From a virus (Duplodnaviria; Heunggongvirae; Uroviricota; Caudoviricetes): DNA of 25,754 bases. The position numbers and the translations under genes are program-made. How positions within the stretch are numbered: position 1 is the stretch's first letter; each line of letters starts with the position of its first letter. The stretch lies in the IMG/VR virus record IMGVR_UViG_2778261588_000001. One strand, written 5' to 3'. The notes under the pieces are model-generated. The model had not been told where the DNA came from. It did no database searches and worked only from the letters and a program-made list of their open reading frames with translations. Positions 2,903 to 21,004 of the stretch are shown here, piece after piece.

Positions 2903-2932
2903 CGCCATGAAGCTCTTTCATGGCGATTTTTT
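2903..2932 (+). terminator. Rho-independent terminator-like hairpin on the plus strand with no upstream gene
   Basis: Perfect 9-bp stem CGCCATGAA / TTCATGGCG, 5-nt loop, then A-TTTTTT. A second perfect hairpin TAGAGTGGC-ttac-GCCACTCTA lies at 2851..2872. Confidence 0.5.
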
Positions 2933-3018
2933 ATTCTTAATCCAAGAACATACTCCCTACCTATAGAAAAATCACTTTTTGAACAAAAGAATAACGTATT
3001 TAGGTAATCATTACGAAT

Positions 3019-4876: not shown

Positions 4877-5026
4877 TTCTTGCTCCTCAATCCATTAAAA
4901 TCTCAGCAATAGTAGTTGTTACGTCCGCCACTGGCTCAGAGCTGACTATCCGCTAAATTTAGCTCAGTGCCGTAGCTGTGTCAGAACAAACCTAAGCCGA
5001 AACCGTTTATTACAAAACAATAAATA

Positions 5027-5455: not shown

Positions 5456-5572
5456 TTTTCCTCACATATGTCATATAGTAAAGGATTATATATACCGTTG
5501 TTTTGGACGCTCAAACAGCGAATCAGATCAAATAAAACGCACATTTGTTAACATTTACACAAAGTCTGCGTG

Positions 5573-5593
5573 GGATATTCTGAAAGAATATCC
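5573..5593. promoter_or_regulatory. Perfect 21-bp palindrome GGATATTCT-gaa-AGAATATCC about 120 bp upstream of the 142-aa lipoprotein gene; candidate operator
   Basis: Read directly from the sequence: 9-bp perfect inverted arms with a 3-bp spacer in an AT-rich promoter-like region. Confidence 0.4.
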
Positions 5594-5988
5594 ATAATGT
5601 GGAGAGAATCTATTGAAGTGCATGGTGCCGGGTGCCTCCCGGTGAATTCAGTACCAGCACCTGAATCCGCGATTATCCCATATACCTACTCGCTGATTGC
5701 CCCTCCGCACAGGGGGATTCACCATGCCAGTTTCTTTTAACAAACTCCCCGCAAACCAGAGAACAGTCAACCGCCTGAATTGTGAAGTATTTAAAAATTT
5801 CTCCCGCTAACTGATACCCGGCTAACAGTCTGGCGTTTTCTTTTTCAGCAACGGGAAAGCAACAACCACCACACCCGCCACCAGCACACCGTCAGCCAGC
5901 ACTGACATTATCCGGCTGCTGCAATGCCATTCACAAAAACAGTAAGCAATCACTTTTTACCGTAACAGGTGATAATCCAGATATGTAT

Positions 5989-6342
5989 CTACCCCAGATG
6001 AGTAATCCGAAGTTCATCCATACCACAGGTCCTGGCTATTCTGTTGTACTCCTGAACAAGAGCAAATAATTCTGAATTAGCAACCATGAACTCATCGCAA
6101 ACCCTCTGTATAGCATCACTATTCAGAAGAATAACGTCTCTTCCCGAAAGACGATCAGGAGTACAGAACAAAACTGTCAAACGGCTGAAGGCCTTTGCTC
6201 GTGCTGCATTGACTATATCAATACGCTGCCTAAGGATGAAACACCCCGACGCCTCATCAATATTCACTCTACCCACACCATATGAATGATAAATATTTAA
6301 TGCTGAAAAAACCATTAGACCGTATAACAAACACTCAATCAA
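5989..6342 (-). CDS. Hypothetical protein (108-117 aa) between the tRNAs and the lipoprotein pair; start uncertain
   Basis: ORF only. The first codon is TTG at 6342; an ATG at 6315 gives 108 aa; no convincing SD at either; no homology recognised. Confidence 0.4.
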   Translation of the reverse strand: MIECLLYGLMVFSALNIYHSYGVGRVNIDEASGCFILRQRIDIVNAARAKAFSRLTVLFCTPDRLSGRDVILLNSDAIQRVCDEFMVANSELFALVQEYNRIARTCGMDELRITHLG

Positions 6343-6452
6343 TACTTAACAGAACTTTTATTTTTGACAAACATATAATATTTTCAACAATATCCTGAGC
6401 CAGGTATATTCCAGTATAAGGCTCTGCCGGAAGGAATCTGGAAGAATGAATA

Positions 6453-6529
6453 TGGCGCGCTGTACTGGATTCGAACCAGTAACCGATTGCTTAGAAGGCA
6501 ATTGCTCTGTCCGGCTGAGCTAACAACGC
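6453..6529 (-). tRNA. tRNA-Arg (anticodon UCU), phage argN/argO-like
   Basis: 77-nt cloverleaf on the minus strand: acceptor GCGTTGT/ACAGCGC, T-arm ACTGG-TTCGAAT-CCAGT, anticodon loop CU-UCU-AA, encoded 3' CCA. Confidence 0.85.
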
Positions 6530-6634
6530 TGAATACCGATAATGGACCGCTATCGGGGACCCGCCCCCCCCCCGCACCAACAACCCTGTTATCGTGTCGT
6601 CTGCTCTTCCTGATAAGCTCATGGCGGTTTGTGA

Positions 6635-6710
6635 TGGTGGCCCTTGCTGGATTTGAACCAGCGACCTGGCGATTATGAGTCGCTCGCTCTCACCACTGAG
6701 CTAAAGGGCC
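6635..6710 (-). tRNA. tRNA with CAU anticodon, ileX/ileZ-like (tRNA-Ile2; elongator Met not excluded)
   Basis: 76-nt cloverleaf: acceptor GGCCCTT/AAGGGCC, T-arm GCTGG-TTCAAAT-CCAGC, anticodon loop CU-CAU-AA, discriminator A, encoded CCA; differs at only a few positions from E. coli ileX as recalled. Confidence 0.85.
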
Positions 6711-6853
6711 GGGAGCAGAATAATAACGGTCCGTAATTAATTCCGCAATAAAAAACCCGCTCGGCGGCGGGTTGTAGAAACTCTTCTAACGTCAGGCATA
6801 AAAAGCCCATCGTTATGATGAATTTACCACAGATTTCGGAAAAATCAACCTTG

Positions 6854-7675
6854 TTACCTAGTTACCTTTTTTAACTGCCGCTCAGCCCATCCTTCTTCAA
6901 TATCAAACCGGGTCACCAGCGCATCATAGAATTTCTTAACTGTTTTTTCCCATGACGCGCGTGTTATCTGGTTTGTCACCTCGCATATAGCATTAAATGC
7001 CTCCGTTGATGGTAGTCTTTCATAGCCACGACCACCACAACGCTGGCAGTCTCTGATAACAGGCATACCACGTTTTACCGACTCTTCACGGTGAATGGCG
7101 ACACCACGCCCACGGCAATCCTTACAGGCGGTGGAAACCTCACCCTTTCCGCCACACTCCGGACAGGCAACTTTTACCACCTCCCTGACTTTTTTCCATT
7201 CTTCCCAGTAAGACGGATACACACCTTTCGTACACTTTGCCCATACCGGCGGCTTACCATCCGGATACTGGACCTTGTTTGTAAAAACTACGCTTTCAAT
7301 AAATTTTTCCCCATAGCAACAAGGGCACTGCTTTTTACTCGCTGCGCTGCGGGCATAATCCTCAAAAGCGTACGAAGCCATAATGCGCATCACTACCGGT
7401 TTTATTTCTGCCGGAAGTTTTCTCAACGCCGCCACACGATCGCACCGACTGAGTGCATAATCTGCCAGTAATTCTGTTGCCCGCGCCCTGTCATTCATAC
7501 TGATGCCCATTTTCCCCAGGAACGCAGAAAACCCCATCTCAGCCCGATTCTGTGTCATGCCCTGCGCGGCCATCACATCAGTGATACTCAGCGCATCTTT
7601 TGACGTTGAGGCCGATGCATCGGTCAGGCAAGGGGATTTTGGGGAGTAGTATTTCGGTAAATCTTCCAGTTTCAT
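6854..7675 (-). CDS. quuQ: Late-gene antiterminator Q, QuuQ-like, with DnaJ-type zinc-finger repeats (273 aa)
   Basis: Three CxxCxGxG motifs (CPECGGKGE, CKDCRGRGV, CQRCGGRGY); overall similarity to Qin QuuQ as recalled; position immediately upstream of the phage tRNAs. Confidence 0.75.
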   Translation of the reverse strand: MKLEDLPKYYSPKSPCLTDASASTSKDALSITDVMAAQGMTQNRAEMGFSAFLGKMGISMNDRARATELLADYALSRCDRVAALRKLPAEIKPVVMRIMASYAFEDYARSAASKKQCPCCYGEKFIESVVFTNKVQYPDGKPPVWAKCTKGVYPSYWEEWKKVREVVKVACPECGGKGEVSTACKDCRGRGVAIHREESVKRGMPVIRDCQRCGGRGYERLPSTEAFNAICEVTNQITRASWEKTVKKFYDALVTRFDIEEGWAERQLKKVTR

Positions 7676-8049
7676 TTTTTGACCTGCTCTTCATGCATTA
7701 TGGGGTAAATCTTCACCCCCAGACGTCCACCAGATACTGGCTGACCACGAACGATATTGATTTCATCAAACTGCTCATCGTCCATTAACACTCCCGCATG
7801 CGTCAGCGCATCCAGCGGTGCTTTCAGGATATTGTCCAGGTCGCGACGACGCTTATCCGGTGGCTCTGCAATCACCTTTATCGCCAGCCTTCCGGACAGG
7901 CTTAATTTCAGCCGCTGCTGGCGAACAATAAGCGCCACAGCCCGGCGATAACGCTTTCCCTCCTCCGAGATAAAATATGTGCTGCCACGGCGTCGCCAGT
8001 AAGTGTTCACCGTCGGCGGGTAAGGTAAAACCAAATCTATGAGCATCAC
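7672..8049 (-). CDS. rusA: RusA-family Holliday junction resolvase (125 aa)
   Basis: Motifs PPTVNTYW and DKRRRDLDN match the RusA family; typical nin-region position upstream of Q. Confidence 0.85.
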   Translation of the reverse strand: MMLIDLVLPYPPTVNTYWRRRGSTYFISEEGKRYRRAVALIVRQQRLKLSLSGRLAIKVIAEPPDKRRRDLDNILKAPLDALTHAGVLMDDEQFDEINIVRGQPVSGGRLGVKIYPIMHEEQVKK

Positions 8050-8058
8050 TCACCTCTT

Positions 8059-9108
8059 TTACCCAAGCACGCCAGTTGCAAAGGCGTGATCAAGAAAACG
8101 AAAAATTAAATCAACCTGAGAACCATGCTTTTCTTCGAACGCCAGAGGATCCGCATGAAGCTCGTTGTGATGCTCCCGACACAGCGGTAGCGTGAAAATA
8201 TCGTGAGATTTTGTCCCCATTCCGCCCTGACCATGACCAATCAGGTGATGGGGATCGTCGGCTGGCTTACCACAATACGCACACGGCTGTGTCTTCACCC
8301 AGCGTGTGTATTTCTCGTTAACCCAGCGGCGACGTTTAGGTCGTTTCATGAAAGATTCCGGAGACTCAGGATCAACGGCAATGCTGACCACCGTCTTTTC
8401 CTGTGGTGGGTTCTGTTGCTGGTGGGCGTGAGGCAGCGGCGCAAGATTTTTTGTGCGCTGTTTCAGTATGCTGGTGGCGGTCTGCTCTCCCGGTACGATG
8501 TCGCTTTCACGGTACATTGAGCGGATTTTTTCCGCACGCAACCCCAGCGAACGACGTAATACCGCTTCCGGTAGCGCGTCCGCCACCTGATTGCGGACCG
8601 CCCACCAGGATAATTCAGCCAGCGATAATTCCCGCTCCTGTGTGCCATTCATTGCGTGACGAATGACGTCAATCATCCATGCTGACAAGTTTTGGTGAGC
8701 AAGTTGCTCAAGTGATTCGGAGGTCTGGTCACGCAACTGGTTGTCGCAGTGCCAGCACAACACCATTGCGCCGGTACCATAACGGTGAATGACGGTTTCG
8801 CTGTGATGATAATCGCCGTGTGGCCACTGGCAGGATTTAATATGGCGCAACAGCCAGTCAGACAATGCACCAGCACCACCAGCAGCACGAATCACCCGTG
8901 CGTTACTGAAAAACGGCAGCAATGTTTTGTCTTCCACCAGCGGCTGGCGAACGGCAGGAACGCCCCCGGACGGCAGATTACGCATGCTTTTCGGTTCCGG
9001 CTCCACCAGTACCCGGGTATTGTGGAATACCGGCATGGATTCACGGCCCGGCTTAACGATCACCAGCCCGAGTTCCGGTACCAGAACAGGTCGAAGTAAT
9101 ACTCGCAC
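8059..9108 (-). CDS. ydfU: DUF968 protein, YdfU-like (349 aa)
   Basis: Length and sequence recalled as the Qin YdfU family; C-terminal Cys/His cluster CAYCGKPADDPHHLIGHGQGG...CREHHNELH. Confidence 0.75.
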   Translation of the reverse strand: MRVLLRPVLVPELGLVIVKPGRESMPVFHNTRVLVEPEPKSMRNLPSGGVPAVRQPLVEDKTLLPFFSNARVIRAAGGAGALSDWLLRHIKSCQWPHGDYHHSETVIHRYGTGAMVLCWHCDNQLRDQTSESLEQLAHQNLSAWMIDVIRHAMNGTQERELSLAELSWWAVRNQVADALPEAVLRRSLGLRAEKIRSMYRESDIVPGEQTATSILKQRTKNLAPLPHAHQQQNPPQEKTVVSIAVDPESPESFMKRPKRRRWVNEKYTRWVKTQPCAYCGKPADDPHHLIGHGQGGMGTKSHDIFTLPLCREHHNELHADPLAFEEKHGSQVDLIFRFLDHAFATGVLG

Positions 9109-9109
9109 G

Positions 9110-9388
9110 TTACCTCCAGATGCGTTGCTGGAATGTGCGGGACGGACGCGGTGATCGTTCGGAGTAAGGAAGCCTGACGGAGATTATCCAGTGACGATAA
9201 TCGAGGCTGAGGGCTTTCTTAATCTCGTATCCGTGTCTGCGGTAGCACTGAATTAGCCACTCGGCCTGTTCTTCAGTGCATGGGGGATGCTGGAACCAGT
9301 CAGATTTGAAAGTGCGGGAACGCCGCCCGTGCCTGCTGGCAAAGACGGCAGAATCATCAGAATTGTGTAATTTGGTATCGTGCGCCAT
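9110..9388 (-). CDS. Hypothetical phage protein (92 aa from the ATG at 9388)
   Basis: ORF only. The longer 135-aa version would start at a GTG upstream of the hok terminator, so the ATG at 9388 is preferred. No homology recognised. Confidence 0.4.
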   Translation of the reverse strand: MAHDTKLHNSDDSAVFASRHGRRSRTFKSDWFQHPPCTEEQAEWLIQCYRRHGYEIKKALSLDYRHWIISVRLPYSERSPRPSRTFQQRIWR

Positions 9389-9460
9389 CGGTTGTCTCTG
9401 CTGGCGCAGCAGGTGCCAGTTGTTCAGGCTGGCGTGCGAATTGTAAACCAGAATGCCAGG

Positions 9461-9487
9461 AAAAAACAAAACCCGCCGAAGCGGGTT
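9461..9487 (-). terminator. Rho-independent terminator after hok
   Basis: Minus strand: stem AACCCGC / GCGGGTT with loop TTCG, followed by TTGTTTTTT. Confidence 0.55.
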
Positions 9488-9555
9488 ACGTGCGGGTGCG
9501 TTGAGGATGCCTGACACATCAGAGGTGGCGAGGGATTTCTCCCTCGCCGGGTCTC

Positions 9556-9711
9556 TTACTCCTCAGGTTCGTAAACTGTGAAGACAGCGACCTCCGTCTG
9601 GCCGGTTCGGATTCGTACCTCGCAGAGGTCTTTCCTCGTTACCAGTGCCGTCACTATGACGGTTAAACAGATGACGATCAGGGCGATTAACATCGCCTTT
9701 TGCTGCTTCAT
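9556..9711 (-). CDS. hokD: Hok-family type I toxin (51 aa), HokD/RelF-like
   Basis: MKQQKAMLIALIVICLTVIVTALVTRKDLCEVRIRTGQTEVAVFTVYEPEE is near-identical to E. coli HokD as recalled. An in-frame 19-codon upstream extension exists but the internal ATG gives the canonical length. Confidence 0.85.
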   Translation of the reverse strand: MKQQKAMLIALIVICLTVIVTALVTRKDLCEVRIRTGQTEVAVFTVYEPEE

Positions 9712-10431
9712 AGCCTGCTTCTCCTTGCCTTTCGGCACGTAAGAGGCTAACCTAGATTTGCCGTTCATAGATTGAGCCTCAGATTAATGTTAAGCGTCTT
9801 GCAGGACGCGTAATGTTAACTGGGGCTTTTCTCTATCTGCCTTTGGTGTTCATGCCTGAGGCAGATAGCCTCAAGCACCCGCAGCAATTCTACTTAACTC
9901 CCGTCACCTCGCCAATATAAAATCAATCAGAAAGGCGATCCATAAGAACAACAGCAAGACAATAAATTGCCATTACAGCCGCAATAGCTAGCGCACATTT
10001 GAGAACCAGCACGACAACCTCCTGTATTGGACGTACACCAGTTCTGATAAATATGAGGCTGTCTCATCATTGATTCAATATAACTATTGGGTATAGTTTC
10101 TGTGATTTTGTTCTGTAGAAATGGAACACAACAACCAGTCACCACCAGCACTTCTTTAAATACGCCAAGTCCGACGCAAGCTAACCTTCTAGTCCGCTTT
10201 GAGCGAGGAGCGGACCAAACCCGGCCAACTGACTCTTAAAGGGGCCGCAGGAATTTTTCGTCTGAACTTTCGAAGCTCCTCTCCCTGAAGACAGAAAACT
10301 TCTGTGTGCTGTGGGAATATTGAATCTTTGCATTAGATATAAATAATTTTATCCCGCCTGAAGTTTACATTATTTTATTTATCTGTTTTTCTAAATCAGA
10401 CTGCACTCCTTACTTAAATCAGGAGCCAGTC

Positions 10432-11631
10432 ATGCCATTTGTTATTTATGTGTTTACTATCAGTGCCTTTGCGCTCGGACTCGCGGAATTTGTCCCCATT
10501 GGGCTGACAGACGTTATGGCTCAGGGGTTGTGTGTGGGTGTGGAGCAGACCGGGGCAGCGGTTACAACCTATGCACTGGGGGCAACGTTCGCGGCACCCG
10601 TACTGTCTGCGCTGACAGCAAGCTGGAGCCGGAAAAATGTAATGCTTACAACTGCCGTTGTGTTTACTGCCGGTAGTCTGGCGGCCGCGTTTGCAGCCAC
10701 ATTACCTCAGCTCCTGTTAGCGCGGTTCATTGCTGGTCTGGGACACGGCCTGTTTCTGGCTGCGGCATCCAGTACCGCAGCTCGTCTTGCTGGACCGGGT
10801 AAAGCAGGCAGAGCGGTGGCTGTGGTATTTGGTGGCTTTACTCTGGCGATGGCAATCGGCGTACCGCTGAGTACATGGTTGGGGGGGGTGGTCTCATGGC
10901 GTCCAGTTCTCGGCGCTATTGCCGCTTTTGGCGCGTTCGGATTCCTTGGACTGTTGTTCGGTATGAAAGATCCCGTACGCAGCGTGCCCGGTGAACATAG
11001 TGACTCAGCAATGCAGAATATCGGCATGCTGTTTAACCGTAAGTTGCTGGCCGGCGCGCTGGTTACGGTGCTGGCGTATGCAGGCTCGTTTACGGCTTAC
11101 ACCTTTATCGCACCTATTCTGACGCAGGTGACAGGGGTTACCGGAGCAACGGTGAGTCTGTTTATGCTGGTTTACGGTATTACAGCTGCGGTAGGTAATA
11201 TTCTTGGTGGGAAACTTACCGACAGCATGGGGGTTAATCGTGCCAATATACTCATCATTAGCGGCATTGTTGTTGTCGTGCTTGGTATGTGGCTGCTGTC
11301 ATCCTCACCGGTGAGCATGGGCATTCTGGTTGCGCTGCTGGGTATGGTGACATTTGCCGCAGTGCCGGCACTGCAGGCCCGTCTGATTGGTGTCGCTGAG
11401 CAACATGCTCCTCATGCGCATGGTGTTGCTGCCGGCCTGAATATTGCGGGCTTCAACTCAGGTATAGCGCTGGGATCAGTACTGGGCAGCATTACTATAA
11501 GCCACGCCGGTATCGTGTATACCGGTATCAGCGGTGCGATTGTTTCTCTGCTCGGCCTGCTGTTGCTGCTTGCACAAATCCGTCGCAGCCACAGTCGTAA
11601 ATTTCAACAGGTTAAAATCGTAGGCCAGTAA
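10432..11631 (+). CDS. MFS transporter (399 aa, 12-TM type), cargo
   Basis: Long hydrophobic ORF with Gly/Ala-rich helices; SD AGGAG upstream; visibly higher GC than flanking phage DNA. Confidence 0.85.
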   Translation: MPFVIYVFTISAFALGLAEFVPIGLTDVMAQGLCVGVEQTGAAVTTYALGATFAAPVLSALTASWSRKNVMLTTAVVFTAGSLAAAFAATLPQLLLARFIAGLGHGLFLAAASSTAARLAGPGKAGRAVAVVFGGFTLAMAIGVPLSTWLGGVVSWRPVLGAIAAFGAFGFLGLLFGMKDPVRSVPGEHSDSAMQNIGMLFNRKLLAGALVTVLAYAGSFTAYTFIAPILTQVTGVTGATVSLFMLVYGITAAVGNILGGKLTDSMGVNRANILIISGIVVVVLGMWLLSSSPVSMGILVALLGMVTFAAVPALQARLIGVAEQHAPHAHGVAAGLNIAGFNSGIALGSVLGSITISHAGIVYTGISGAIVSLLGLLLLLAQIRRSHSRKFQQVKIVGQ

Positions 11632-11642
11632 AGGGAGGTTAT

Positions 11643-12335
11643 ATGCTTACCCGTGAAAATATGCTTAATGGCACATTTGTCAGGGTGCATGAAGCGCTGC
11701 TCCCGGCGAATATGCTCTGGGACGCTGAAAAAATACGCGCATCAATGAACTCTACTCTGGAGGAGCGCCCGACGGGTGCTCCTTTCTGGATATTTGCCTA
11801 CGGGTCATTGATGTGGAATCCCGTGCTGGCAATTGAAGAAATGCAACGGGCCCGTCTGAAAGGATGGCAGCGCAGTTTCTGCATTCGTTTGATATCCGGA
11901 CGAGCGACTCCTGATGTCCCCGGCAGGATGTTATCGCTCGACGAAGGTGGAATTACCGAAGGTATTGCGTTCAGACTGCCGGAATCGACTCTTATTAATG
12001 AGCTGGAAATTGTCTGGACGCGCGAGATGATAACCGGTCTTTACCGTCCGGTCTGGGCAGACGTTTCGCTAGGAAACGGTGAGGAAATTCAGGCGCTGGC
12101 TTTCGTATCAGACAGACTGCATCCGCATTATGAACAGGACAATCTTACAGCGACCGTAGCGTTGAGCATCGCATCTGCCCGTGGAGACATTGGCACGAAT
12201 GCAGATTATGTATGGAAACTGCAGGCCACTCTGGGTGCGTTGGGAATACGGGATGATTACGTGAGTGAACTGGCCCTTGCTCTGCATGAGGCTCCCTGTA
12301 ACGATAAACTTCATCAGCGAGGCGCTTCACTATGA
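11643..12335 (+). CDS. ChaC-family gamma-glutamylcyclotransferase-like protein (230 aa)
   Basis: Motif FWIFAYGSLMWNP and downstream GRMLSLDEGG...LWTREMITG pattern typical of ChaC; SD AAGGGAGG upstream. Confidence 0.8.
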   Translation: MLTRENMLNGTFVRVHEALLPANMLWDAEKIRASMNSTLEERPTGAPFWIFAYGSLMWNPVLAIEEMQRARLKGWQRSFCIRLISGRATPDVPGRMLSLDEGGITEGIAFRLPESTLINELEIVWTREMITGLYRPVWADVSLGNGEEIQALAFVSDRLHPHYEQDNLTATVALSIASARGDIGTNADYVWKLQATLGALGIRDDYVSELALALHEAPCNDKLHQRGASL

Positions 12336-13213
12336 GCCATCTGAGCCATCTGCGAACGTTTCTTGAGGCCTATCGCTCTGGCTCCTTTTCAAAGGCGGCA
12401 GAACTACTGGGCATCACTCAGCCCGCGGCGTCACAGCATATCCAGTCTCTTGAGACTCTGGTTGGTAAGCGTCTGTTTATCAGGCAGGCCAGAGGCGTGA
12501 CGGCAACCGAAGCTGCGGATGAGCTTGCCCGCTCAGTTTCACCCTTCATTGATGGTCTGGAAGAAAAGCTGTCCTCTTTCCGGTCAGGCTCTGTACACGG
12601 GGGAACAATTAATCTGGCAGGACCGCCAGATTTTATTCATTCCCGGCTTGGGACAGTAATGGCTCCACTAATGAAGGAGGGGTATCGCCTACGCTTTCAT
12701 ACCGGCAATAAGCAACGTATTTATTCCCTTTTGCATGACGGGAGCGCCGATCTCGCTGTTACCGCATCTATGCCTGATGACCGTCTGTACGGCTATGCAC
12801 ATCTACTGACTGAACGCATGCTCCTTGTTCATGCTCCCGCCATGTCAGAGATCATCGGATCAGAACCTGGTGCTGAAACGCTTGCCTCATTACCGCTGAT
12901 TGCTTATGACGAAGAGTTGCCACTGATTAGAGCGCTCTGGGCCTCCATGTTTCAGAGAGCCCCTGAGATGCAGGCTACATTCACCATTCCGGATTTACGT
13001 ATTATCCGCGACTTGGTCTGTGACGGCCACGGGTGGACAGTGCTGCCGGATTATCACTGTGACAATGACCTGAAAAGTGGTCGCCTGATTTCAGTGACAC
13101 CTGCAGACCTCGCTCCGACTAATCATCTTTATCTGGTCTGGAACAAAAGGACGGCTAATAACAGCCGAACCGCCTATGTTCGGGATTACATTCTTAAAAC
13201 GTTTCCGCGTTGA
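12332..13213 (+). CDS. LysR-family transcriptional regulator (293 aa)
   Basis: N-terminal HTH LRTFLEAYRSGSFSKAAELLGITQPAASQHIQSLE; start overlaps the ChaC-like stop. Confidence 0.85.
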   Translation: MSHLSHLRTFLEAYRSGSFSKAAELLGITQPAASQHIQSLETLVGKRLFIRQARGVTATEAADELARSVSPFIDGLEEKLSSFRSGSVHGGTINLAGPPDFIHSRLGTVMAPLMKEGYRLRFHTGNKQRIYSLLHDGSADLAVTASMPDDRLYGYAHLLTERMLLVHAPAMSEIIGSEPGAETLASLPLIAYDEELPLIRALWASMFQRAPEMQATFTIPDLRIIRDLVCDGHGWTVLPDYHCDNDLKSGRLISVTPADLAPTNHLYLVWNKRTANNSRTAYVRDYILKTFPR

Positions 13214-13257
13214 TGTTTGAAACGGATGATTGGCGATGCGTATCATAAGTTACGTAT

Positions 13258-13281
13258 GTCCGCTTCTGGCACAAAGCAGAC
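13258..13281. repeat. Hairpin repeat copy A: GTCCGCTT-ctggcaca-AAGCAGAC
   Basis: Read directly; shares a 16-nt core (15/16 identical) with copy B at 16931..16954; lies between the convergent LysR and membrane-protein genes. Confidence 0.45.
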
Positions 13282-13343
13282 GCCCACTCTCACGCGAATG
13301 CTTTGCCCTTGACTTGCCAACAACCGTATCGCTTGCTCCGCAA

Positions 13344-14636
13344 CTATGGTTTTTTATTAGAACCTTCGCCACTAAATAAATTATAATAAATTGATTTTAT
13401 TAGATATCTGTCAGAATCTATATGGTCAGCACGAGTAGCATGCTCTAATGTTTCAAATGCTAGGGTTTGTGCGGCTTCAGCAAAAATTCCAGGCCAACCC
13501 TTACTCAGCATCGACAGTCCTTTAAGTACCCTTATCTGAATTTCCCTCATACTGGCACCATCGCGCGCAACAGGTGAGAAAAAGTCTTCAAGTAGATCGT
13601 TATTCTGAAGTGGTGCAACATGTACAGAAGGATATTTCACTTCTATTTCATCAGATTTATTCTGCGCGTAAGCGGAAAGTATACGTACACCTCTGCCAAT
13701 GACATCAATGGCGGTTCCAGGATCGTTCACTGCGGGGGAAAGGGCTCGGCAGGCTATTTCGGCCATGACGCTAAGACAAAATCGGGGGTCCTGAGCAAAT
13801 GAACGTACATCCGAGACAATAATCGTCTCAAGTAAATCGGTGCTGATTGATGACTCCTGGCCCTGACTCAGGTACAAAACTGGCGTGGACGGATGTATGA
13901 AACTGCCCGGCTGCGCCACGAGGTATACATGACGGGGATCATTGGTCAGCAGCTTGCTGAGTTTCACCATATCAACATATTCAACATAGCCAATCTTTTT
14001 CGGATAAACTGCAACCGTTCCTTTCGGCTGTTCATTGTTCTCAAGCCAAGGATATCCGCCGAGACAGGGATTTCTTGCTCTCGCAATAAATGTTTCGATG
14101 GCCGCCTGTTCTACTTTTGCCGTTGTCTCACCAACCCTCCCCAGAGAGGTCAAATGCTGTATCCAGCGAAGCAATGTGATGAGGATTAAGGCAATGACAA
14201 CCAGTGTTACAATGAATAAAATGACTCTCCCCCTTTCTCCATAAGCTCCCATATTGAGGGCAATAATCCCTACCAGACTGAAGAGAAAAGAACCGATGAA
14301 GGTGGCCAGTACATTTTGTGTGGTGACGTCTTCAACAACTAAACGAGTAGCTCTGGGAGTCACATTAGTAGTGGCTGAACCGTAGGCTGTGACCATGATG
14401 CTCAGCGAAAATGTGGTCACTGCCAGCATACTCGATGCCAGTATGTTCAGAATGTTATCGACTGCTTCCGCACCAACCTTCACGGAAACCGACTCAGGTA
14501 TCATTGATTTAAAAAGAATTGATAAAAGGGCCGTTATTATTGCGACAATTGCGAATAACGTTGCCCTGAACCATAGTTTTTTAAATGTCTGCTTCAGCAT
14601 CCATTTCCAGCGTGAAATCATTCTGCATTCCCTCAT
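13344..14636 (-). CDS. Predicted membrane protein (430 aa), DUF2254-like
   Basis: N-terminal transmembrane segments followed by a soluble C-terminal domain; family assignment from memory and uncertain. Confidence 0.65.
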   Translation of the reverse strand: MRECRMISRWKWMLKQTFKKLWFRATLFAIVAIITALLSILFKSMIPESVSVKVGAEAVDNILNILASSMLAVTTFSLSIMVTAYGSATTNVTPRATRLVVEDVTTQNVLATFIGSFLFSLVGIIALNMGAYGERGRVILFIVTLVVIALILITLLRWIQHLTSLGRVGETTAKVEQAAIETFIARARNPCLGGYPWLENNEQPKGTVAVYPKKIGYVEYVDMVKLSKLLTNDPRHVYLVAQPGSFIHPSTPVLYLSQGQESSISTDLLETIIVSDVRSFAQDPRFCLSVMAEIACRALSPAVNDPGTAIDVIGRGVRILSAYAQNKSDEIEVKYPSVHVAPLQNNDLLEDFFSPVARDGASMREIQIRVLKGLSMLSKGWPGIFAEAAQTLAFETLEHATRADHIDSDRYLIKSIYYNLFSGEGSNKKP

Positions 14637-14684
14637 ATTGCAGCCGGGATAAATAAATGCCGCCTCTGTGGCGGCATGTTGCTG

Positions 14685-16688
14685 TTAACGAACCAGATGC
14701 AGGAAGTGCAGGTGTTTTTCGTACTGGTCCAGTATGTCATTAATCAGCTGTTCCTGATTCCAGCCCATTACATCATAATTTTGGCCGCCCTCTTTGAGAT
14801 AGACTTCAGCGCGATAATATCGATGTTGTTCACTCTGCTGCTCATCATTATCCAGCGCAGCGAGCGCGAAGGTCGGTGAGTTATACCCGCGAAGCCTCAC
14901 TTCATATATATAATTCAGCTCGTTGCCCAAATCGACTTCAAGGCGAATACGATCCTCGGCGGCGTCACTGATGTGGCTTATCGTTCCCTGCTTGTTAAGT
15001 TCCTCCTGAACCAGCGTCATGGCGGGTTGGATAATGTCGTCCATAAAACGTTTCACAAGAGAGCGCTTCGGCAAATACGCGATATTGCGTAACCTTCTCT
15101 GCCAGGGAATTGGGTTACGTGCAGCCGTAGGAGCAATAGTCGCCATGCTAAGGCTTTCACGCTTGGTCAAATCCCGACGCAGGGCTTTTAACAGTCCGTA
15201 TATGGATATTAATAAGATAACTGAGAAGGGCAATGCACTCGCTATCGTTACGGTTTGCAACGCACTCAGCCCCCCTGCGATCAGCAGGGCAATAGCAACA
15301 ACGCCCATGAGCGATGCCCAGAAAATTCGCTGCCAGACGGGCGTGTTTGCCACCCCACCTGATGCCAGAGTATCCACAACCATTGCCCCCGAATCAGCAG
15401 ACGTTACAAAGAAGACGATGACCATCGCCATTGCAATGAATGACAGCACGGAAGAGAACGGGAAATGCTCCAGGAAATTAAACAGGGCAAGCGCAACATC
15501 CTGCTGAACGGTATTGGCGAGGTCAGTGGCGCCCTGGTTCATGATGAGATAGATGGCGCTGTTTCCAAACACCGTCATCCACATGAGCGTAAAGCCGGCG
15601 GGAACAAACAACACGCCAGTCACGAACTCACGAATTGTCCTGCCGCGGGAAACGCGTGCAATGAACATACCTACAAACGGCGACCATGAAAGCCACCATC
15701 CCCAGTATAATAATGTCCAGCCCCCCAGCCAGTTGCTCGACTTGGGTTCATACGCGTAAAGGTTGAACGTTTTACTCACCAGTTCCGACAGATAACCACC
15801 CGTATTTTCCACAAATGACTTCAGCAGAAGCACAGTGGGACCCAGGCACAAGACCAGCGCCAGGAGCAACACCGCCAGGCCCAGATTAAGCTCAGACAGG
15901 ATGCGTATTCCCTTGTCCAGGCCGGACACCACCGAAATCGTCGCTAACCCCGTGATGACCACGATCAAAATGACCTGTACCGTTTCATTGATGGGCACGC
16001 CGAAAAGATGGTTCAAACCGGCATTCACCTGCAATACACCGTAACCCAGTGATGTTGCAACGCCAAAGACAGTGCCTATCACGGCGAAGATATCAACCGC
16101 GTGGCCTATAGGCCCGTAAATGCGATCGCCGATAATGGGATAGAGCGCAGAACGCAGCGTTAAAGGCAGACCGTGACGGTAACTGAAAAAGGCCAGAATC
16201 AGCGCCACGATGGCATAAATTGCCCATGCGTGCAGACCCCAGTGGAAGAACGTCAGGCGCATGGCTTCCTTCGCTGCCGCAACGGTCTCTGGAGTGCCGA
16301 CAGGTGGCGAAAGATAATGCATCACAGGTTCGGCAACGCCAAAGAACATCAGGCCGATCCCCATCCCTGCCGAAAAAAGCATCGCGAACCAGGAGTGGTA
16401 GCTGAAATCAGGCTGCGCATGGTCTGGGCCCAGCTTTATATCACCGTAACGTGAGAGTCCAAGGAACGTGACGCTCAGTAAAATCAGGGCCACAGCAAGT
16501 ATGTAGAACCAGCTGGCATTCGTGAAGATTTGTTGCTGAAGTAGTTTAAAATTTTTGTCGGCGACATCCGGGAATACGGCGGCAAAGGCGACAAGAAGGA
16601 AAATTAGCAAAGCAGATGTAAAGAATACCGCTTTGTTAATCTGGCTTGTAGACTTCTTTGGGGTTGTATCATTTTCACTCATAATCAT
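14685..16688 (-). CDS. BCCT-family transporter, BetT-like (667 aa)
   Basis: Length and N-terminal pattern (...GDIKLGPDHAQPDFSYHSWFAMLFSAGMGIGLMFFGVAEPVMHY) parallel E. coli BetT as recalled; long C-terminal cytoplasmic tail. Confidence 0.85.
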   Translation of the reverse strand: MIMSENDTTPKKSTSQINKAVFFTSALLIFLLVAFAAVFPDVADKNFKLLQQQIFTNASWFYILAVALILLSVTFLGLSRYGDIKLGPDHAQPDFSYHSWFAMLFSAGMGIGLMFFGVAEPVMHYLSPPVGTPETVAAAKEAMRLTFFHWGLHAWAIYAIVALILAFFSYRHGLPLTLRSALYPIIGDRIYGPIGHAVDIFAVIGTVFGVATSLGYGVLQVNAGLNHLFGVPINETVQVILIVVITGLATISVVSGLDKGIRILSELNLGLAVLLLALVLCLGPTVLLLKSFVENTGGYLSELVSKTFNLYAYEPKSSNWLGGWTLLYWGWWLSWSPFVGMFIARVSRGRTIREFVTGVLFVPAGFTLMWMTVFGNSAIYLIMNQGATDLANTVQQDVALALFNFLEHFPFSSVLSFIAMAMVIVFFVTSADSGAMVVDTLASGGVANTPVWQRIFWASLMGVVAIALLIAGGLSALQTVTIASALPFSVILLISIYGLLKALRRDLTKRESLSMATIAPTAARNPIPWQRRLRNIAYLPKRSLVKRFMDDIIQPAMTLVQEELNKQGTISHISDAAEDRIRLEVDLGNELNYIYEVRLRGYNSPTFALAALDNDEQQSEQHRYYRAEVYLKEGGQNYDVMGWNQEQLINDILDQYEKHLHFLHLVR

Positions 16689-16930
16689 TTATTCCATTAA
16701 TTAAATCCGCACTGGATAGAAGGTACTACCTCTCACAGAGTAGCAAAGTTCAACTGGCTATGCGGGGTTAATCGGAATGCATGGTGGAATGAGTGCCGAT
16801 ACAAATCATCCTATATTCTAAGGAGTTTTAAGTTACTCAGCCTGCCAATTACTGGGGCATTTAATTTGTATGATCTGTATCAAAGCTGGGATATAAGTTA
16901 AGTGAAGTATATTAGGCACGAATTACCAGC

Positions 16931-16954
16931 GTCTGCTCTTGGCACAAAGCGGAC
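16931..16954. repeat. Hairpin repeat copy B: GTCTGCTC-ttggcaca-AAGCGGAC
   Basis: Read directly; matches copy A; lies between the BetT-like gene start and the upstream phage gene. Confidence 0.45.
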
Positions 16955-17022
16955 AACCACGCTAGCTCTACCCTGTGCCACAAAATGTCAATTTGCATCT
17001 GAACTAATGCACTTTAATCTCG

Positions 17023-17445
17023 TCACTTCAATAAATACCGAACATCCCCCTGATAAAACGACAATATGCGCTGCATAACTTCGCTCTTCCGGCACTCGCG
17101 ACAGATTATGTTTAGGCGACTGTCGTAGCGACGTATTTCTCCGTCAGGTAATGACCAGATAAGGTCCGGATCAACCACAACCGGTTTCTTCAGCTTTGCC
17201 CTCGATAATTTTTTGCGGGCATTTTGCCAGTCTTTACGAGCCTGTTCAGACGGGAATAACCCGTAGCCAGAATTGTATACATCGCCACTGGCAACCAGCT
17301 CTCTGGCCAGAACGCTCATCAGATATCTTGTTGCCCCAGTTTTAGCTTCCAGTTGTCGTAACGTCTCGCGCCCACTCTGGCGTACGAGTTCAAGAACCTG
17401 CCCTTTAATTTTTTCCCGCTCTTCTTGTGTAAAAACTTTTGCCAC
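17023..17445 (-). CDS. Hypothetical phage early protein (140 aa)
   Basis: ORF immediately downstream of the O-like gene in the early-right operon; basic, possibly DNA-binding; no homology recognised. Confidence 0.5.
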   Translation of the reverse strand: MAKVFTQEEREKIKGQVLELVRQSGRETLRQLEAKTGATRYLMSVLARELVASGDVYNSGYGLFPSEQARKDWQNARKKLSRAKLKKPVVVDPDLIWSLPDGEIRRYDSRLNIICRECRKSEVMQRILSFYQGDVRYLLK

Positions 17446-17485
17446 AAGCCCTCCTGAAAATTACCTCATGACCAGAAATTAACAC

Positions 17486-18562
17486 TTACCCCCTGAAGCC
17501 CGGCGGAATTTCGTTATCCGGTTCAGAAATATGATTCACACAACGCTGGTTGTTCGTGCCGCTTACCGGGAGCAACCAGGGGTTCTCAAAATTCCGGTCC
17601 GGTCCAAAAAACGTCGTCGCTCGCTGAACAAATTCCGTTCCCGTTTTCCCGGTAGCCGCCAAGTATCTTGCGTAACGCCTCACGCCATCCAGCATGGCCT
17701 CTGGTGGCACCCCCTCGCGTAATCTGGCCTTCCAGGCACTGAAAGCGGATTTCTTCGGGTTTGCCCCAGCACGCAACGGGTACTCCCGCCAGACCTGTTC
17801 GAACACATCCGGATAATCCACTCGTCCCACAGACTGCCCGGTGTTTTCCGGGACTACCCGATCGGCTTCCCGCTGAATGGCGGAATCGGCTTCAGGCTGC
17901 TGCAGTTGGTGTGATTGCTCCGCCCTTGCGGTCATCACCTGCTGCACAGCGCCCGAATCGGCTTTCAGCGCATACGCTGAATCGGCTTCCGGTGTCGTGC
18001 CTGCTGGCTGACCAAGATTGACGGTCTGAACATCCCCTGCCTGGTTCGTGGCGTTTTTTACGCCATGGACCATAGTGTTTTGATCTTCTTGATCTGTATC
18101 TTTATCTGTATCTTTATCTGTCGTGACTCGTCGTGACATGTGCGTGACATTTCGTGACGCGCCGTGACAATCGCCATTTTGTTCCCGCTTTCTTTCCCTC
18201 TCTCGCTGCGCCCTCTTGCGCTCTGCAGGAGATTTTGCGGTTTGCGAAATATTGCCGTTGTCCTCTTTAAGCACCTGGCGTTTTTCCCATCCAGTGATTA
18301 AATCACCATCAAGTACCCGCCCCTGCATCGTCTGCAAAATTGAATCAATTACCTCTTCTGTCACGTCGAGCGCACTTGCCAAATCTTCTGTCGTGACATC
18401 AATGTGACCTCGCGTGACATTTCGTGACGCGCTCACCAGGAGGTGGATATACACTGCCATCACTGTTGCAATTGGCTGCCCTGACACCCTGGCAATTGTT
18501 CGCCACTTAGGGTCATTTGGCATGTCATGCCATAATCTGAGCCAGGCGTTAGCCATACTCAC
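17486..18562 (-). CDS. Phage replication initiation protein, O-like / YdaU-like (358 aa), with internal repeats
   Basis: Position after the cro/YdaT-like genes; N-terminus MSMANAWLRLWHDMPNDPKWRTIARVSGQPIATVMAVY resembles prophage replication proteins; acidic TDKDTDKDTD repeat; contains iteron arrays. Confidence 0.65.
   Translation of the reverse strand: MSMANAWLRLWHDMPNDPKWRTIARVSGQPIATVMAVYIHLLVSASRNVTRGHIDVTTEDLASALDVTEEVIDSILQTMQGRVLDGDLITGWEKRQVLKEDNGNISQTAKSPAERKRAQRERERKREQNGDCHGASRNVTHMSRRVTTDKDTDKDTDQEDQNTMVHGVKNATNQAGDVQTVNLGQPAGTTPEADSAYALKADSGAVQQVMTARAEQSHQLQQPEADSAIQREADRVVPENTGQSVGRVDYPDVFEQVWREYPLRAGANPKKSAFSAWKARLREGVPPEAMLDGVRRYARYLAATGKTGTEFVQRATTFFGPDRNFENPWLLPVSGTNNQRCVNHISEPDNEIPPGFRG
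18121..18168. repeat. Iteron array 1: five TCGTGAC-type repeats at 10-11 bp spacing inside the O-like gene, next to 12-nt tandem ATCTGTATCTTT repeats
   Basis: CGTGAC starts at 18122, 18132, 18143, 18153 and 18163, read directly from the sequence. Confidence 0.55.
18391..18428. repeat. Iteron array 2: four (C/T)GTGAC repeats at 10-11 bp spacing inside the O-like gene
   Basis: Motif starts at 18392, 18403, 18413 and 18423; the 20-mer GCGTGACATTTCGTGACGCG is shared with array 1; an inverted copy GTCACG lies at 18360..18365. Confidence 0.5.
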
Positions 18563-20946: not shown

Positions 20947-21004
20947 TTTCTGGTGACGTTTGGCGGTATCAGTTTTACTCCGTGACTGCTCTGCCGCCCT
21001 TTTT
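20947..21004 (+). ncRNA. dicF: DicF small RNA (antisense inhibitor of ftsZ and other targets)
   Basis: TTTCTGGTGACGTTTGGCGGTATCAGTTTTACTCCGTGACTGCTCTGCCGCCCTTTTT matches the DicF sequence as recalled, including its 3' terminator; lies just upstream of dicB. Confidence 0.7.

What the first reader, a model, noticed from the sequence alone, without database searches (positions are those of the whole stretch)
10192..16954. Non-phage transporter and metabolism cargo block inside the prophage
Between the hok/nin region and the replication genes, where lambdoid phages normally carry P and nin genes, sits a GC-richer block. It encodes an MFS transporter, a ChaC-like gamma-glutamylcyclotransferase, a LysR regulator, a DUF2254-like membrane protein and a BetT-like BCCT transporter. 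This is not a known lambdoid module. The ChaC-MFS-LysR trio suggests a regulated uptake or turnover pathway for a gamma-glutamyl compound, paired with an osmolyte-type transporter. No P/DnaC-like helicase loader gene is left.
Basis: partly seen in the sequence, partly recalled or inferred. Interest (0 to 1): 0.6.

Follow-up and report, generated by a model that had tools for sequence, protein, structure and literature searches.

The report
Swappable cargo cassettes in a prophage
The transporter and metabolism block is real foreign cargo, but it is two separate gene cassettes in this prophage family's standard cargo slot, bounded by short palindromic recombination-type sites that bound the same and other cassettes in plasmids, conjugative elements and genomic islands.

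Summary
The five genes are present as described: MFS, ChaC-like, LysR, DUF2254 and a BetT-like BCCT. The block is not phage core. Relatives of this Qin-site lambdoid prophage carry at least 17 other cargos, mostly anti-phage defence genes, at the same position between hok/sok and the DUF977/replication genes. The block is composite. Module 1 (MFS-ChaC-LysR) is 84-87% identical in DNA to ordinary chromosomal operons of Pantoea-like bacteria. Module 2 (DUF2254-BCCT) is a wandering 3.7-kb unit, 99.8% identical in an IncY plasmid and a conjugative element. Its diverged copies occur in about 1,500 E. coli chromosomes and about 1,270 Klebsiella plasmid records.

Each has inverted arms (GTCCGCT / AGCGGAC) around an asymmetric centre. 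All homology breakpoints fall in these centres, and the arms of B and C are hybrid, as after conservative site-specific integration of a circle. A ~200-aa tyrosine recombinase, absent from this window, is flanked by the same site types in other arrays. The claim that a P helicase loader was lost is wrong, and GC content does not separate the block from its neighbours. The recombination mechanism and the cargo functions are inferred, not shown.

The parts
9556..9880 (-). hokD toxin gene (9556-9711) with sok antisense RNA (9706-9880). This is the phage backbone on the left of the slot.
   Evidence: RefSeq annotation of the identical AR_452 prophage; Rfam sok 111.7 bits.
10192..10215 (.). Site A: GTCCGCT TT GAGCGA GG AGCGGAC. 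The outer arm and centre (to 10206) belong to the phage backbone. The inner arm belongs to the cargo.
   Evidence: Found by pattern in window and relatives. Phage homology stops at 10206/10215. Among 23 cargo contexts, breakpoints start at site position 16, right after GAGCGA. It is arm I1 of the top inverted repeat.
10216..13257 (+). Module 1: promoter-like site 10320-10347, MFS transporter 10432-11631, ChaC-like gamma-glutamylcyclotransferase 11643-12335, LysR regulator 12332-13213 (start overlaps the ChaC stop).
   Evidence: Pfam. 10319-13216 is 84-87% DNA-identical to chromosomal loci of Pantoea rwandensis and 'Enterobacter sp. BIGb0383', where the neighbours are ordinary chromosomal genes. 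ChaC-like is 44% identical to K-12 ChaC. Promoter scan.
13258..13281 (+). Site B: GTCCGCT TC TGGCACA A AGCAGAC. A hybrid C-type site, with the left arm from module 1 (target) and the right arm from module 2.
   Evidence: It is the left homology boundary of module 2 in five unrelated contexts. Direct repeat D2 with site C.
13282..16930 (-). Module 2: DUF2254 membrane protein 13344-14636 (RefSeq start 14621) and BetT-like BCCT transporter 14685-16688 (RefSeq start 16682). A hairpin lies between them at 14657-14677.
   Evidence: Pfam and NCBIfam. It is 99.8% identical in plasmid pPO125 and in an ICE of strain JMF1. It is ~94% identical at the fec/acuR chromosomal island and ~93% on Klebsiella plasmids. 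BCCT is 43% identical to K-12 BetT. Hairpin.
16931..16954 (+). Site C: GTCTGCT CT TGGCACA A AGCGGAC. A hybrid C-type site, with the left arm from module 2. The centre and right arm belong to the phage backbone.
   Evidence: Right homology boundary of module 2. Among 24 cargo contexts in lambdoid loci, homology from the phage side breaks at -1 to -13 relative to TGGCACA.
17023..18562 (-). Phage backbone on the right of the slot: DUF977/Ren-like protein (17023-17445) and a 358-aa replication initiator with a DnaD-like loader half (17486-18562).
   Evidence: Pfam DUF977; PHROG 142, 3729 and 1701. Same order in relatives with other cargo.

Best explanation
The block is two mobile gene cassettes occupying the standard cargo slot of a family of lambdoid prophages. 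The slot is defined by two short sites. Each has inverted arms of 7-11 bp (ATGTCCGCTtt / aaAGCGGACAT) around a 6-7 bp asymmetric centre. The A type has centre GAGCGA and lies on the hok side. The C type has centre TGGCACA and lies on the replication side.

Shown:
- Homology between elements with different cargo ends inside these centres.
- The same cassettes occur at 99.5-99.8% identity between phages, a plasmid and an ICE.
- Sites B and C carry hybrid arms.

Inferred:
- Module 2 (DUF2254 plus BetT-like BCCT) entered as a circle carrying one site (GCGTCTGCT ct TGGCACA a AGCAGACGC, perfect 9-bp inverted arms). It recombined with the C-type site next to module 1 by conservative site-specific recombination, with crossover in TGGCACA.
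- Whole slot contents are swapped by recombination at the A and C sites, which have different centres and so should not recombine with each other.
- The enzyme is a ~200-aa tyrosine recombinase consisting of a catalytic domain only (here called 'sInt'). In other arrays it sits between a C-type and an A-type half-site. It is not encoded in this window, so the block is at present stranded unless sInt is supplied in trans.
- Module 1 was captured from a Pantoea-like chromosomal operon by an unknown step.

Inferred from family membership only, for function:
- Module 2 gives the lysogen an extra BetT-type proton-coupled quaternary-amine (choline/betaine-like) importer plus a membrane protein of unknown role.
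- Module 1 gives a second, diverged ChaC-type gamma-glutamylcyclotransferase, which would release 5-oxoproline from glutathione or another gamma-glutamyl compound. It is co-transcribed with a DHA1-type MFS carrier and its LysR regulator.
For: 1. Slot: relatives ZJ3920 and F95 have other genes between the same sites. There are 17 cargo types in 39 lambdoid loci, mostly defence genes: Tmn, Hp1/Hp2, PDC-S39, GmrSD-like, PDC-S06 and a CBASS cyclase.
2. Breakpoints: from the C side, nearly all of 274 pairwise comparisons (264) break at -1 to -13, 96 of them exactly at -1 before TGGCACA. From the A side, nearly all of 247 break at positions 16-29, 77 of them at position 16.
3. Chance: 0.065 such sites are expected per shuffled window, and three are found, exactly at the block edges and the module junction. 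They are the top repeats in an unbiased scan.
4. Hybrid arms: B is GTCCGCT...AGCAGAC and C is GTCTGCT...AGCGGAC. The joined module ends give a perfect palindrome.
5. Module 2 lies next to at least 5 different upstream cargos in phages, an ICE and a plasmid, at 99.8% identity.
6. Two further cassettes are shared between phage and non-phage elements at 99.5-99.8%, with ends at site centres.
7. sInt is flanked by a variable arm plus TCGCTC upstream and TGTGCCA plus a variable arm downstream. This holds in E. coli phages, pPO125, Proteus prophages and a Pantoea plasmid, and in the CFT073 island.
8. There are 13 sites in 62 kb around sInt, against 0.18 by shuffling and 2 in 94.5 kb of control loci.
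9. sInt is a Xer/FimB-like tyrosine recombinase family member, and the site geometry of 11-6-11 is Xer-like.
10. The hairpins are weak and are not called as terminators.
Against: - No recombination was observed.
- The predicted circular junction and the module-2-free allele were not found in viral or metagenome contigs.
- sInt is absent from the window and from 15 of 16 sampled chromosomes that carry module 1. Co-occurrence is about background.
- sInt homologues in a marine ICE have no canonical full sites nearby.
- Inner arms next to sInt are divergent.
- No site flanks the Pantoea-like donor loci, so how module 1 was captured is unexplained.
- Cargo functions rest on 43-44% identity to characterised proteins and on family models.
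- DUF2254 gave no informative structural match.
Confidence: 0.6

Rival explanations
1. Short-homology recombination. The palindromes are conserved 'boundary' sequences. Cargo is swapped by homologous or homeologous recombination (RecA, or the phage's own RecE/RecT- or Red-type system) across the 11-15 identical bases, without a dedicated site-specific recombinase.
For: The longest identical stretch between partner sites is the centre plus one arm (TGGCACAAAGC), so homology-driven exchange would also place breakpoints there and give hybrid arms. The prophage encodes a RecE-like exonuclease. Most block-carrying genomes have no sInt. Shigella carries module 1 with a divergent allele of module 2, as after allelic replacement.
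Against: It does not explain why unrelated cassettes in phages, plasmids, ICEs and islands of several genera all end in the same two palindromes with two distinct centres. It also does not explain why a tyrosine recombinase gene is itself framed by one site of each type at fixed distances, or why sites are about tenfold enriched around it. Eleven to fifteen bases is short for efficient homologous exchange (established knowledge; not tested here).
Confidence: 0.2
2. Transposition. Module 2 is a non-autonomous transposon with 9-11 bp terminal inverted repeats (AAGCAGACGC ... GCGTCTGCTCT). It inserts into palindromic targets and duplicates 7 bp (TGGCACA).
For: Read literally, module 2 has inverted ends and is flanked by a 7-bp direct repeat.
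Against: The 'duplication' is always the same 7 bases in every context, which indicates a fixed site centre and not a target duplication. The ends resemble the target arms, as expected for sites bound by one recombinase. Whole-slot cargos have different sequences at their two ends (GAGCGA and TGGCAC) and no duplication. No transposase is consistently linked.
Confidence: 0.07
3. A single pick-up event. The whole 6.7-kb block was captured once from a bacterial chromosome by illegitimate recombination or aberrant excision. The short repeats are incidental, for example terminators or operators.
For: In E. coli, module 1 is almost always found together with module 2 in this prophage (298 versus 297 records).
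Against: The two halves have different origins and distributions. No genome scanned has them adjacent outside this prophage. The sites are weak hairpins without T-runs and are not called as terminators. The same sites bound other cargo elsewhere.
Confidence: 0.03

Closest known systems
Integrons (IntI integrase, attI, attC gene cassettes)
   Same: A tyrosine recombinase is associated with arrays of promiscuous, mostly single-operon cassettes. Each cassette is bounded by short imperfect palindromic sites. A cassette with one site can be drawn as a circle that integrates at a resident site. The cargo includes defence genes.
   Different: sInt is ~200 aa, against ~320-340 aa for IntI, and scores far below the integron-integrase models (17 bits against cut-offs of 265-435). 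The sites are 24-28 bp simple duplex-type palindromes, not 57-141-bp attC sites recombined as folded single strands. There are two site types with different centres flanking each slot. The recombinase sits inside the array between two slots rather than at one end with a cassette promoter.
pdif modules of Acinetobacter plasmids (modules flanked by inversely oriented 28-bp XerC/XerD sites)
   Same: The site geometry is 11-6-11 bp. Modules are bounded by two sites in opposite orientation. Identical modules occur in different replicons. The cargo is a mix of resistance, toxin-antitoxin and transport genes. The mechanism of movement has not been demonstrated there either (my knowledge of that literature; not checked here).
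   Different: The arms (GTCCGCT) are unlike the XerC/XerD arms of dif, cer or psi (comparison from memory). A dedicated small recombinase gene is linked to the arrays. The hosts are Enterobacterales and other Proteobacteria, and the elements include prophages, ICEs and pathogenicity islands.
Defence and moron hotspots of temperate phages (P2/P4 hotspots, lambdoid morons)
   Same: There is a fixed position in the phage genome with highly variable, mostly anti-phage cargo. The cargo is rapidly swapped between relatives and does not disturb the phage modules (PMC9122126 and PMC13586616 for P2/P4).
   Different: Here the slot has defined recombination-type sites, and the same cassettes occur outside phages. 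The occupant in this window is transport and metabolism cargo rather than defence.
E. coli BetT (choline:H+ symporter) and ChaC (glutathione-specific gamma-glutamylcyclotransferase)
   Same: There is full-length similarity in both cases: 43% identity to BetT, including the C-terminal extension, and 44% to ChaC, including the YGSLMWNP and REMITG motifs.
   Different: Both are diverged extra copies carried on mobile cassettes. They have different partners (DUF2254; MFS plus LysR) and are not next to betIBA or chaAB. Their substrates are untested.

Membership tests
BCCT transporters, BetT subfamily | Full-length match to the BCCT domain and to the BetT subfamily model above the curated cut-off | tested here: met
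   Pfam BCCT E=7e-199. NCBIfam NF007399 BetT 752 bits against a cut-off of 695. 43% identity to K-12 BetT over 567 residues.
BCCT transporters, BetT subfamily | Choline (or other quaternary amine) transport activity and osmotic regulation | not testable with these tools
   There is no experiment. The glycine-betaine BCCT model also scores 593 bits, below its cut-off of 650, so the substrate is open.
ChaC-type gamma-glutamylcyclotransferase | ChaC domain with the YGSL motif and the catalytic glutamate | tested here: met
   Pfam ChaC E=4.8e-35. YGSLMWNP and REMITG align with K-12 ChaC and human ChaC2.
ChaC-type gamma-glutamylcyclotransferase | Specificity for glutathione | not testable with these tools
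   44% identity to the characterised enzyme. No NCBIfam model is matched.
   Relatives with other cargo go initiator, DUF977, slot, hok without such a gene. The initiator itself matches DnaD-like loader families.
Integron | IntI-type integrase (about 320 aa, integron-integrase model) | tested here: not met
   There is no integrase in the block. The linked sInt elsewhere is 200 aa and scores 17 bits against cut-offs of 265-435.
Integron | attC sites (57-141 bp, RYYYAAC...GTTRRRY) | tested here: not met
   The sites are 24-28 bp with GTCCGCT/AGCGGAC arms. The attC core motifs are recalled from memory and are not present in the sites as read.
Xer-dependent (dif/pdif-type) modules | 28-bp site with 11-bp arms and a 6-bp centre; modules flanked by inversely oriented sites | tested here: met
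   Examples are ATGTCCGCTTT GTGCCA AAAGCGGACAT (L126) and TAGTCCGCTTT GAGCGA AAAGCGGACGT (L027). The A and C types face each other across each slot.
Xer-dependent (dif/pdif-type) modules | Arms that match XerC and XerD binding sequences, and dependence on XerC/XerD | tested here: inconclusive
   The arms do not resemble E. coli dif as I recall it. No Xer site model was available to score them. A separate recombinase gene is linked instead.
Simple tyrosine-recombinase core site | Two inverted recombinase-binding arms around a 6-8 bp asymmetric overlap in which exchange occurs | tested here: met
   The arms are inverted and the centres are asymmetric. Breakpoints fall at the edges of the centre, and B and C have hybrid arms. 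Catalysis itself is not testable here.
Phage moron / cargo hotspot | Variable non-essential genes at one conserved position between conserved phage genes | tested here: met
   There are 17 cargo types between the same flanks. The backbone is 93-97% identical on both sides.

The most novel reading that the evidence does not exclude
The block's edges reveal a widespread cassette-exchange system that is undescribed as far as the searched literature shows. It consists of a ~200-aa tyrosine recombinase plus two 28-bp palindromic site types with different centres (GAGCGA and GTGCCA). Its arrays have the form A[cargo]C-recombinase-A[cargo]C. It would shuffle defence, transport, iron-uptake, toxin and metabolic cassettes among lambdoid prophages, plasmids, ICEs and pathogenicity islands of E. 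coli, Shigella, Proteus, Pantoea and beyond. Functionally it would be a natural equivalent of recombinase-mediated cassette exchange.
Probability: 0.4. Interest if true: 0.85.

Novelty: new variant of a known kind. Interest (0 to 1): 0.68.

Why it matters
Taken at face value, the finding is ordinary: prophages carry cargo. What matters is how the cargo is bounded.

If the sites and the small recombinase work as inferred, there is a defined, testable mechanism for something so far known only as an observation. Defence and accessory genes hop between phage hotspots, plasmids, ICEs and islands at near-100% identity.

Such a mechanism would do three things:
- It would give a sequence signature for delimiting cassettes. 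That would help discover new defence genes and trace transporter or virulence modules, such as the DUF2254-BCCT pair common on Klebsiella plasmids or the iron-uptake operon in the CFT073 island.
- It would explain why this slot can hold non-defence cargo.
- It might provide a compact natural recombinase and site pair with two non-cross-reacting site types.

For the lysogen, the cargo predicts extra choline/betaine-type uptake and gamma-glutamyl turnover. These traits are plausible in gut and urinary niches, but they are untested.

Tried and rejected
- GC and GC3 profile: it does not separate the block from neighbouring phage genes.
- Terminator or hairpin reading of the sites: the stems are weak (-3 to -7 kcal/mol, z from -2.4 to +0.6), there are no T-runs, and the scan does not call them.
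- Clustering ORFs around sites to find a universally linked enzyme: only phage backbone genes and relBE came up. sInt was noticed only when cargo ORFs were read.
- K-12 YdfW ('IntK') as a relic of sInt: no similarity.
- Site arrays in satellite-like viral contigs L119 and L126: ordinary integrases and a large serine recombinase lie nearby, with no clear link.
- Literature: no hit for the site sequences, DUF2254 biology, lambdoid hotspot sites or integron-like systems of this kind. The library lacks most subscription journals, so prior description cannot be excluded.
- The resemblance of the C centre (GTGCCAA on the reverse strand) to the R64 shufflon spacer is recalled from memory. The arms do not match, so it is treated as coincidence.
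- Searches for the circular junction of module 2 and for a module-1-only allele: none found.
- Co-occurrence of sInt with the block: about background.

Full report
**What the window is.** The window is 99.95% identical to a lambdoid prophage of E. coli AR_452, integrated next to rspB/ynfA, the Qin site. On the minus strand the order is: repressor region, YdaS/YdaT-like genes, a 358-aa replication initiator, DUF977, the block, sok/hokD, a small ORF, DUF968 (an HNH protein), RusA, Q, tRNAs, and lysis genes.

**Checking the observation.** The five genes are real and belong to the stated families.
- MFS_1: 10432-11631.
- ChaC: 11643-12335.
- LysR: 12332-13213, overlapping the ChaC stop.
- DUF2254: 13344-14636.
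- BCCT: 14685-16688.

The BCCT passes the curated BetT-subfamily cut-off and is 43% identical to K-12 BetT, including its C-terminal extension. The ChaC-like protein is 44% identical to K-12 ChaC and keeps the YGSL and RE(M)ITG motifs. The MFS is nearest to DHA1-type efflux and sugar-efflux carriers (Cmx/CmrA, AraJ, NepI), all below cut-off.

The complete block occurs in 296-297 of 5426 complete E. coli genomes and in no deposited phage genome.

The 'GC-richer' statement is weak. The block is 50.0% GC, against 45-47% for the phage parts as wholes. The genes immediately outside are 54% GC, and DUF2254 inside is 44.8%.

The 'lost P/DnaC' statement is wrong. Relatives with other cargo have the same backbone order. 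The 358-aa protein matches phage replication-initiator and DnaD-like helicase-loader families, and DUF977 matches Ren-like proteins.

**The block is composite.** Searches with the whole block and with its left half behave differently.

The right half (window 13258-16954; DUF2254 plus BCCT) is a unit found in many places:
- 99.8% identical on the E. coli IncY plasmid pPO125 and on a Shigella plasmid.
- 99.8% identical in an integrative conjugative element at tRNA-Thr in strain JMF1.
- About 94% identical at an IS-rich chromosomal island next to fec/acuR, in roughly 1,500 E. coli genomes.
- About 93% identical in about 1,270 Klebsiella plasmid records, for example beside sil on one IncF plasmid.

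The left half (10319-13216) has no other home in E. coli or in plasmids. It is 84-87% identical in DNA to chromosomal loci of Pantoea rwandensis and 'Enterobacter sp. BIGb0383'. There it sits among ordinary chromosomal genes (aminotransferase, TetR, GNAT, AraC, LeuA-like) and without the sites described below.

**The sites.** Aligning the ends of the right half across five contexts showed that homology stops at a shared motif. The window holds three copies.

| Site | Coordinates | Sequence |
|---|---|---|
| A | 10192-10215 | GTCCGCT TT GAGCGA GG AGCGGAC |
| B | 13258-13281 | GTCCGCT TC TGGCACA A AGCAGAC |
| C | 16931-16954 | GTCTGCT CT TGGCACA A AGCGGAC |

- A shuffled window is expected to hold 0.065 such sites.
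- An unbiased repeat search returns A/C as the best inverted repeat and B/C as a direct repeat.
- The best-preserved copies elsewhere read ATGTCCGCTTT-GTGCCA-AAAGCGGACAT. That is 11-bp inverted arms around a 6-bp asymmetric centre.
- There are two centre classes: GAGCGA for the A type, and GTGCCA (TGGCAC on the other strand) for the C type.
- As single strands they fold weakly. They have no T-run and are not called as terminators.

**The slot.** A scan of viral contigs for the phage-side half of site C returned 120 loci.
- In 55 of them the site is followed by the same DUF977-side flank.
- These carry 24 different sequences on the cargo side. In pairwise comparisons, nearly all of 274 pairs (264) break between -1 and -13 relative to TGGCACA, 96 of them exactly at -1.
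- On the hok side, 23 cargo contexts diverge from position 16 of site A, directly after GAGCGA.
- Between the two sites there are 17 cargo types in 39 loci.
- Most cargo types are recognisable defence genes: a Tmn/YobI-type NTPase, Hp1/Hp2, PDC-S39, a GmrSD-like nuclease, a PDC-S06/AAA_13 ATPase, a CBASS-type cyclase, and HEPN/RES-like proteins.
- A few are not defence genes: HAD plus Nudix, and an SDR with a regulator.

The position is therefore a general cargo hotspot, and the transporter and metabolism occupant of this window is the unusual case.

**Signature of site-specific exchange.** Module 2 lies next to at least five different upstream cargos in phages. It also occurs in the ICE and the plasmid, always starting TGGCACA-AAGCAGACGCCC and ending CCAGCGTCTGCTCT-TGGCACA.

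Joining its ends gives GCGTCTGCT-CT-TGGCACA-A-AGCAGACGC, which has perfect 9-bp inverted arms. Site B has a target-type left arm (GTCCGCT) and a module-type right arm (AGCAGAC). Site C has the reverse arrangement. This is what integration of a circle into a resident C-type site by conservative recombination within the centre would leave.

Other observations point the same way:
- Two more cassettes are shared between phages and non-phage elements, with ends at site centres. A 269-aa gene is shared by six lambdoid loci and pPO125 (99.8%). A 417+379-aa pair is shared by a lambdoid locus and the JMF1 ICE (99.5-99.8%).
- In two pairs of loci the same upstream cargo is followed, right after TGGCACA, by different DNA.
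- Shigella flexneri carries module 1 unchanged but a divergent allele of module 2.

**A candidate recombinase.** Reading the cargo ORFs revealed a ~200-aa protein with only a tyrosine-recombinase catalytic domain. It occurs inside the arrays of pPO125 and of two lambdoid loci.
- Motifs consistent with the R, K, HxxR, H and Y catalytic residues can be read in its sequence.
- Its best family matches are weak hits to Xer, FimB/FimE-type invertase and integron-integrase models, none near a cut-off.
- It is 77-95% identical across Escherichia, Providencia, Proteus, Pantoea, Pectobacterium, Idiomarina and others.
- It occurs in 894 of 5426 E. coli genomes and on 405 plasmids of many Proteobacteria.

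In every close copy examined, the layout is as follows:
- Upstream: a variable arm, then TCGCTC, then a diverged inner arm, about 45 bp before the start codon.
- Downstream: a hairpin, then TGTGCCA, then a variable standard arm.

Arrays thus read A[cargo]C-sInt-A[cargo]C. Where sInt is missing, C and A sites sit 39-42 bp apart, measured start to start.

Three examples outside this prophage family:
- A Pantoea megaplasmid has 11 sites in 12.6 kb around sInt.
- Proteus prophage ends show the same arrangement.
- The aspV island of CFT073 has an array in which a TonB-receptor/ABC iron-uptake operon lies between a C-type and an A-type site.

Sites are about tenfold enriched around sInt compared with control loci, and far above the shuffle expectation.

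**Limits of the evidence.**
- Nothing here shows catalysis.
- sInt is not in the window. It is absent from 15 of 16 sampled chromosomes that carry module 1, and co-occurrence is about background.
- sInt copies in a marine ICE lack canonical sites.
- The predicted circle junction and a module-1-only allele were not found in viral or metagenome contigs.
- How a Pantoea-like operon acquired flanking sites is unknown.
- The main rival is exchange by short homology across conserved boundary palindromes, which would also place breakpoints in the shared centre. It does not explain the recombinase framed by one site of each type, the two centre classes, or the presence of the sites around unrelated cargo in several kinds of element.

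**Function of the cargo (inference only).**

Module 2:
- It adds a BetT-type, presumably proton-coupled, quaternary-amine importer.
- It is co-oriented with the phage early-right transcript, but the same 240 bp lie upstream of it in all contexts, so it probably has its own control region.
- The simple scan found no consensus promoter there.
- DUF2254 always travels with it. Its model has an N-terminal bundle of long helices and a confident C-terminal mixed domain, but no informative structural neighbour.

Module 1:
- It is an operon of an efflux-type MFS, a ChaC paralogue and a LysR regulator, with a promoter-like site at 10320-10347.
- The likely chemistry is cleavage of glutathione or another gamma-glutamyl compound to 5-oxoproline.
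- The direction of transport is open.

**Comparison with known systems.**
- In what it works like, the arrangement is closest to integrons and, in architecture, to the pdif modules of Acinetobacter plasmids. The pdif comparison rests on my knowledge of that literature.
- It fails the defining tests for integrons, in integrase type and in attC structure.
- It cannot be shown to be Xer-dependent.
- Searches of the available literature found no description of these sites or of this recombinase's role. The library is incomplete, so the possibility of a prior description stays open.

**Verdict.**
It is wrong on three points: it is not a single block, no replication gene was lost, and composition does not mark it.
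- The cargo itself is a new occupant of a known kind of phage hotspot.
- The bounded, recombinase-linked cassette architecture behind it is the interesting part. It is directly testable.

Noticed in passing
window 4923-4946: A fourth, degenerate C-type-like site (GTCCGCCACTGGCTCAGAGCTGAC) lies between two TolA-C-terminal-like genes (4481-4876 and 5027-5455, minus strand) in the late region. The same sequence is present in viral loci L091 and L129. It may mark a second, decayed slot.
   Followed up: no
L133 (E. coli K-12 Qin prophage) 4982-5005 and 5973-5996: K-12's cryptic Qin prophage has a C-type site 109 bp upstream of relB and an A-like site (centre TTGCTCTT). Together they bracket ydfV/flxA. 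The relB-side flank is the same DNA that follows site C in plasmid pPO125, so relBE-hokD and flxA may also be cassette-borne.
   Followed up: partly
L151 (E. coli CFT073, aspV island) 7442-17457: The small recombinase (9007-9609) sits in an array with sites at 7442, 10654, 11668/11710 and 17430. A TonB-dependent receptor plus ABC iron-uptake operon (11984-16990) lies between a C-type and an A-type site. It is another transporter cassette in the same system, inside a well-studied pathogenicity island.
   Followed up: partly
L150 (Pantoea sp. JZ2 plasmid pJZ2-01) 1570-12569: Eleven sites lie in 12.6 kb around the recombinase. The cassettes encode chemotaxis receptors, a phosphatase, an LRAT-family protein and a DUF2778 protein. 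Pantoea is also the closest source of module 1.
   Followed up: partly
L008 (Shigella flexneri SFBU0723) 5551-8639 and beyond: The same prophage slot holds module 1 at about 100% identity, but followed by a clearly divergent allele of the DUF2254-BCCT module. This looks like replacement of one cassette allele by another.
   Followed up: partly
window 10192-16954 in other genomes (hits H1, H23, H27): In several E. coli genomes the block is interrupted by an IS100 (IS21-family) insertion.
   Followed up: no
window 10179-10215 and 16931-16967: The inverted symmetry of sites A and C extends about 13 bp into the phage flanks (AGCTAACCTTCTA / AACCACGCTAGCT), giving a 37-nt imperfect inverted repeat around the whole slot.
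   Followed up: no
window 3059-3257, 5566-5756, 20948-20999, 6456-6710: Rfam calls IS009 and STnc100 sRNA-like elements, DicF RNA and two tRNAs in the prophage. The region 1500-3000 is very AT-rich (32-34% GC) and differs from the AR_452 prophage to the left of about 3724.
   Followed up: no
L002 (E. coli W5-6 chromosome) 7179-11420: The chromosomal copy of DUF2254-BCCT sits next to a gene annotated as the acrylate-utilisation regulator AcuR, in an IS-riddled island beside fecABCDE. In BL21 and many strains the DUF2254 gene is truncated. The AcuR neighbour hints at a DMSP- or acrylate-related substrate, but this was not examined.
   Followed up: no
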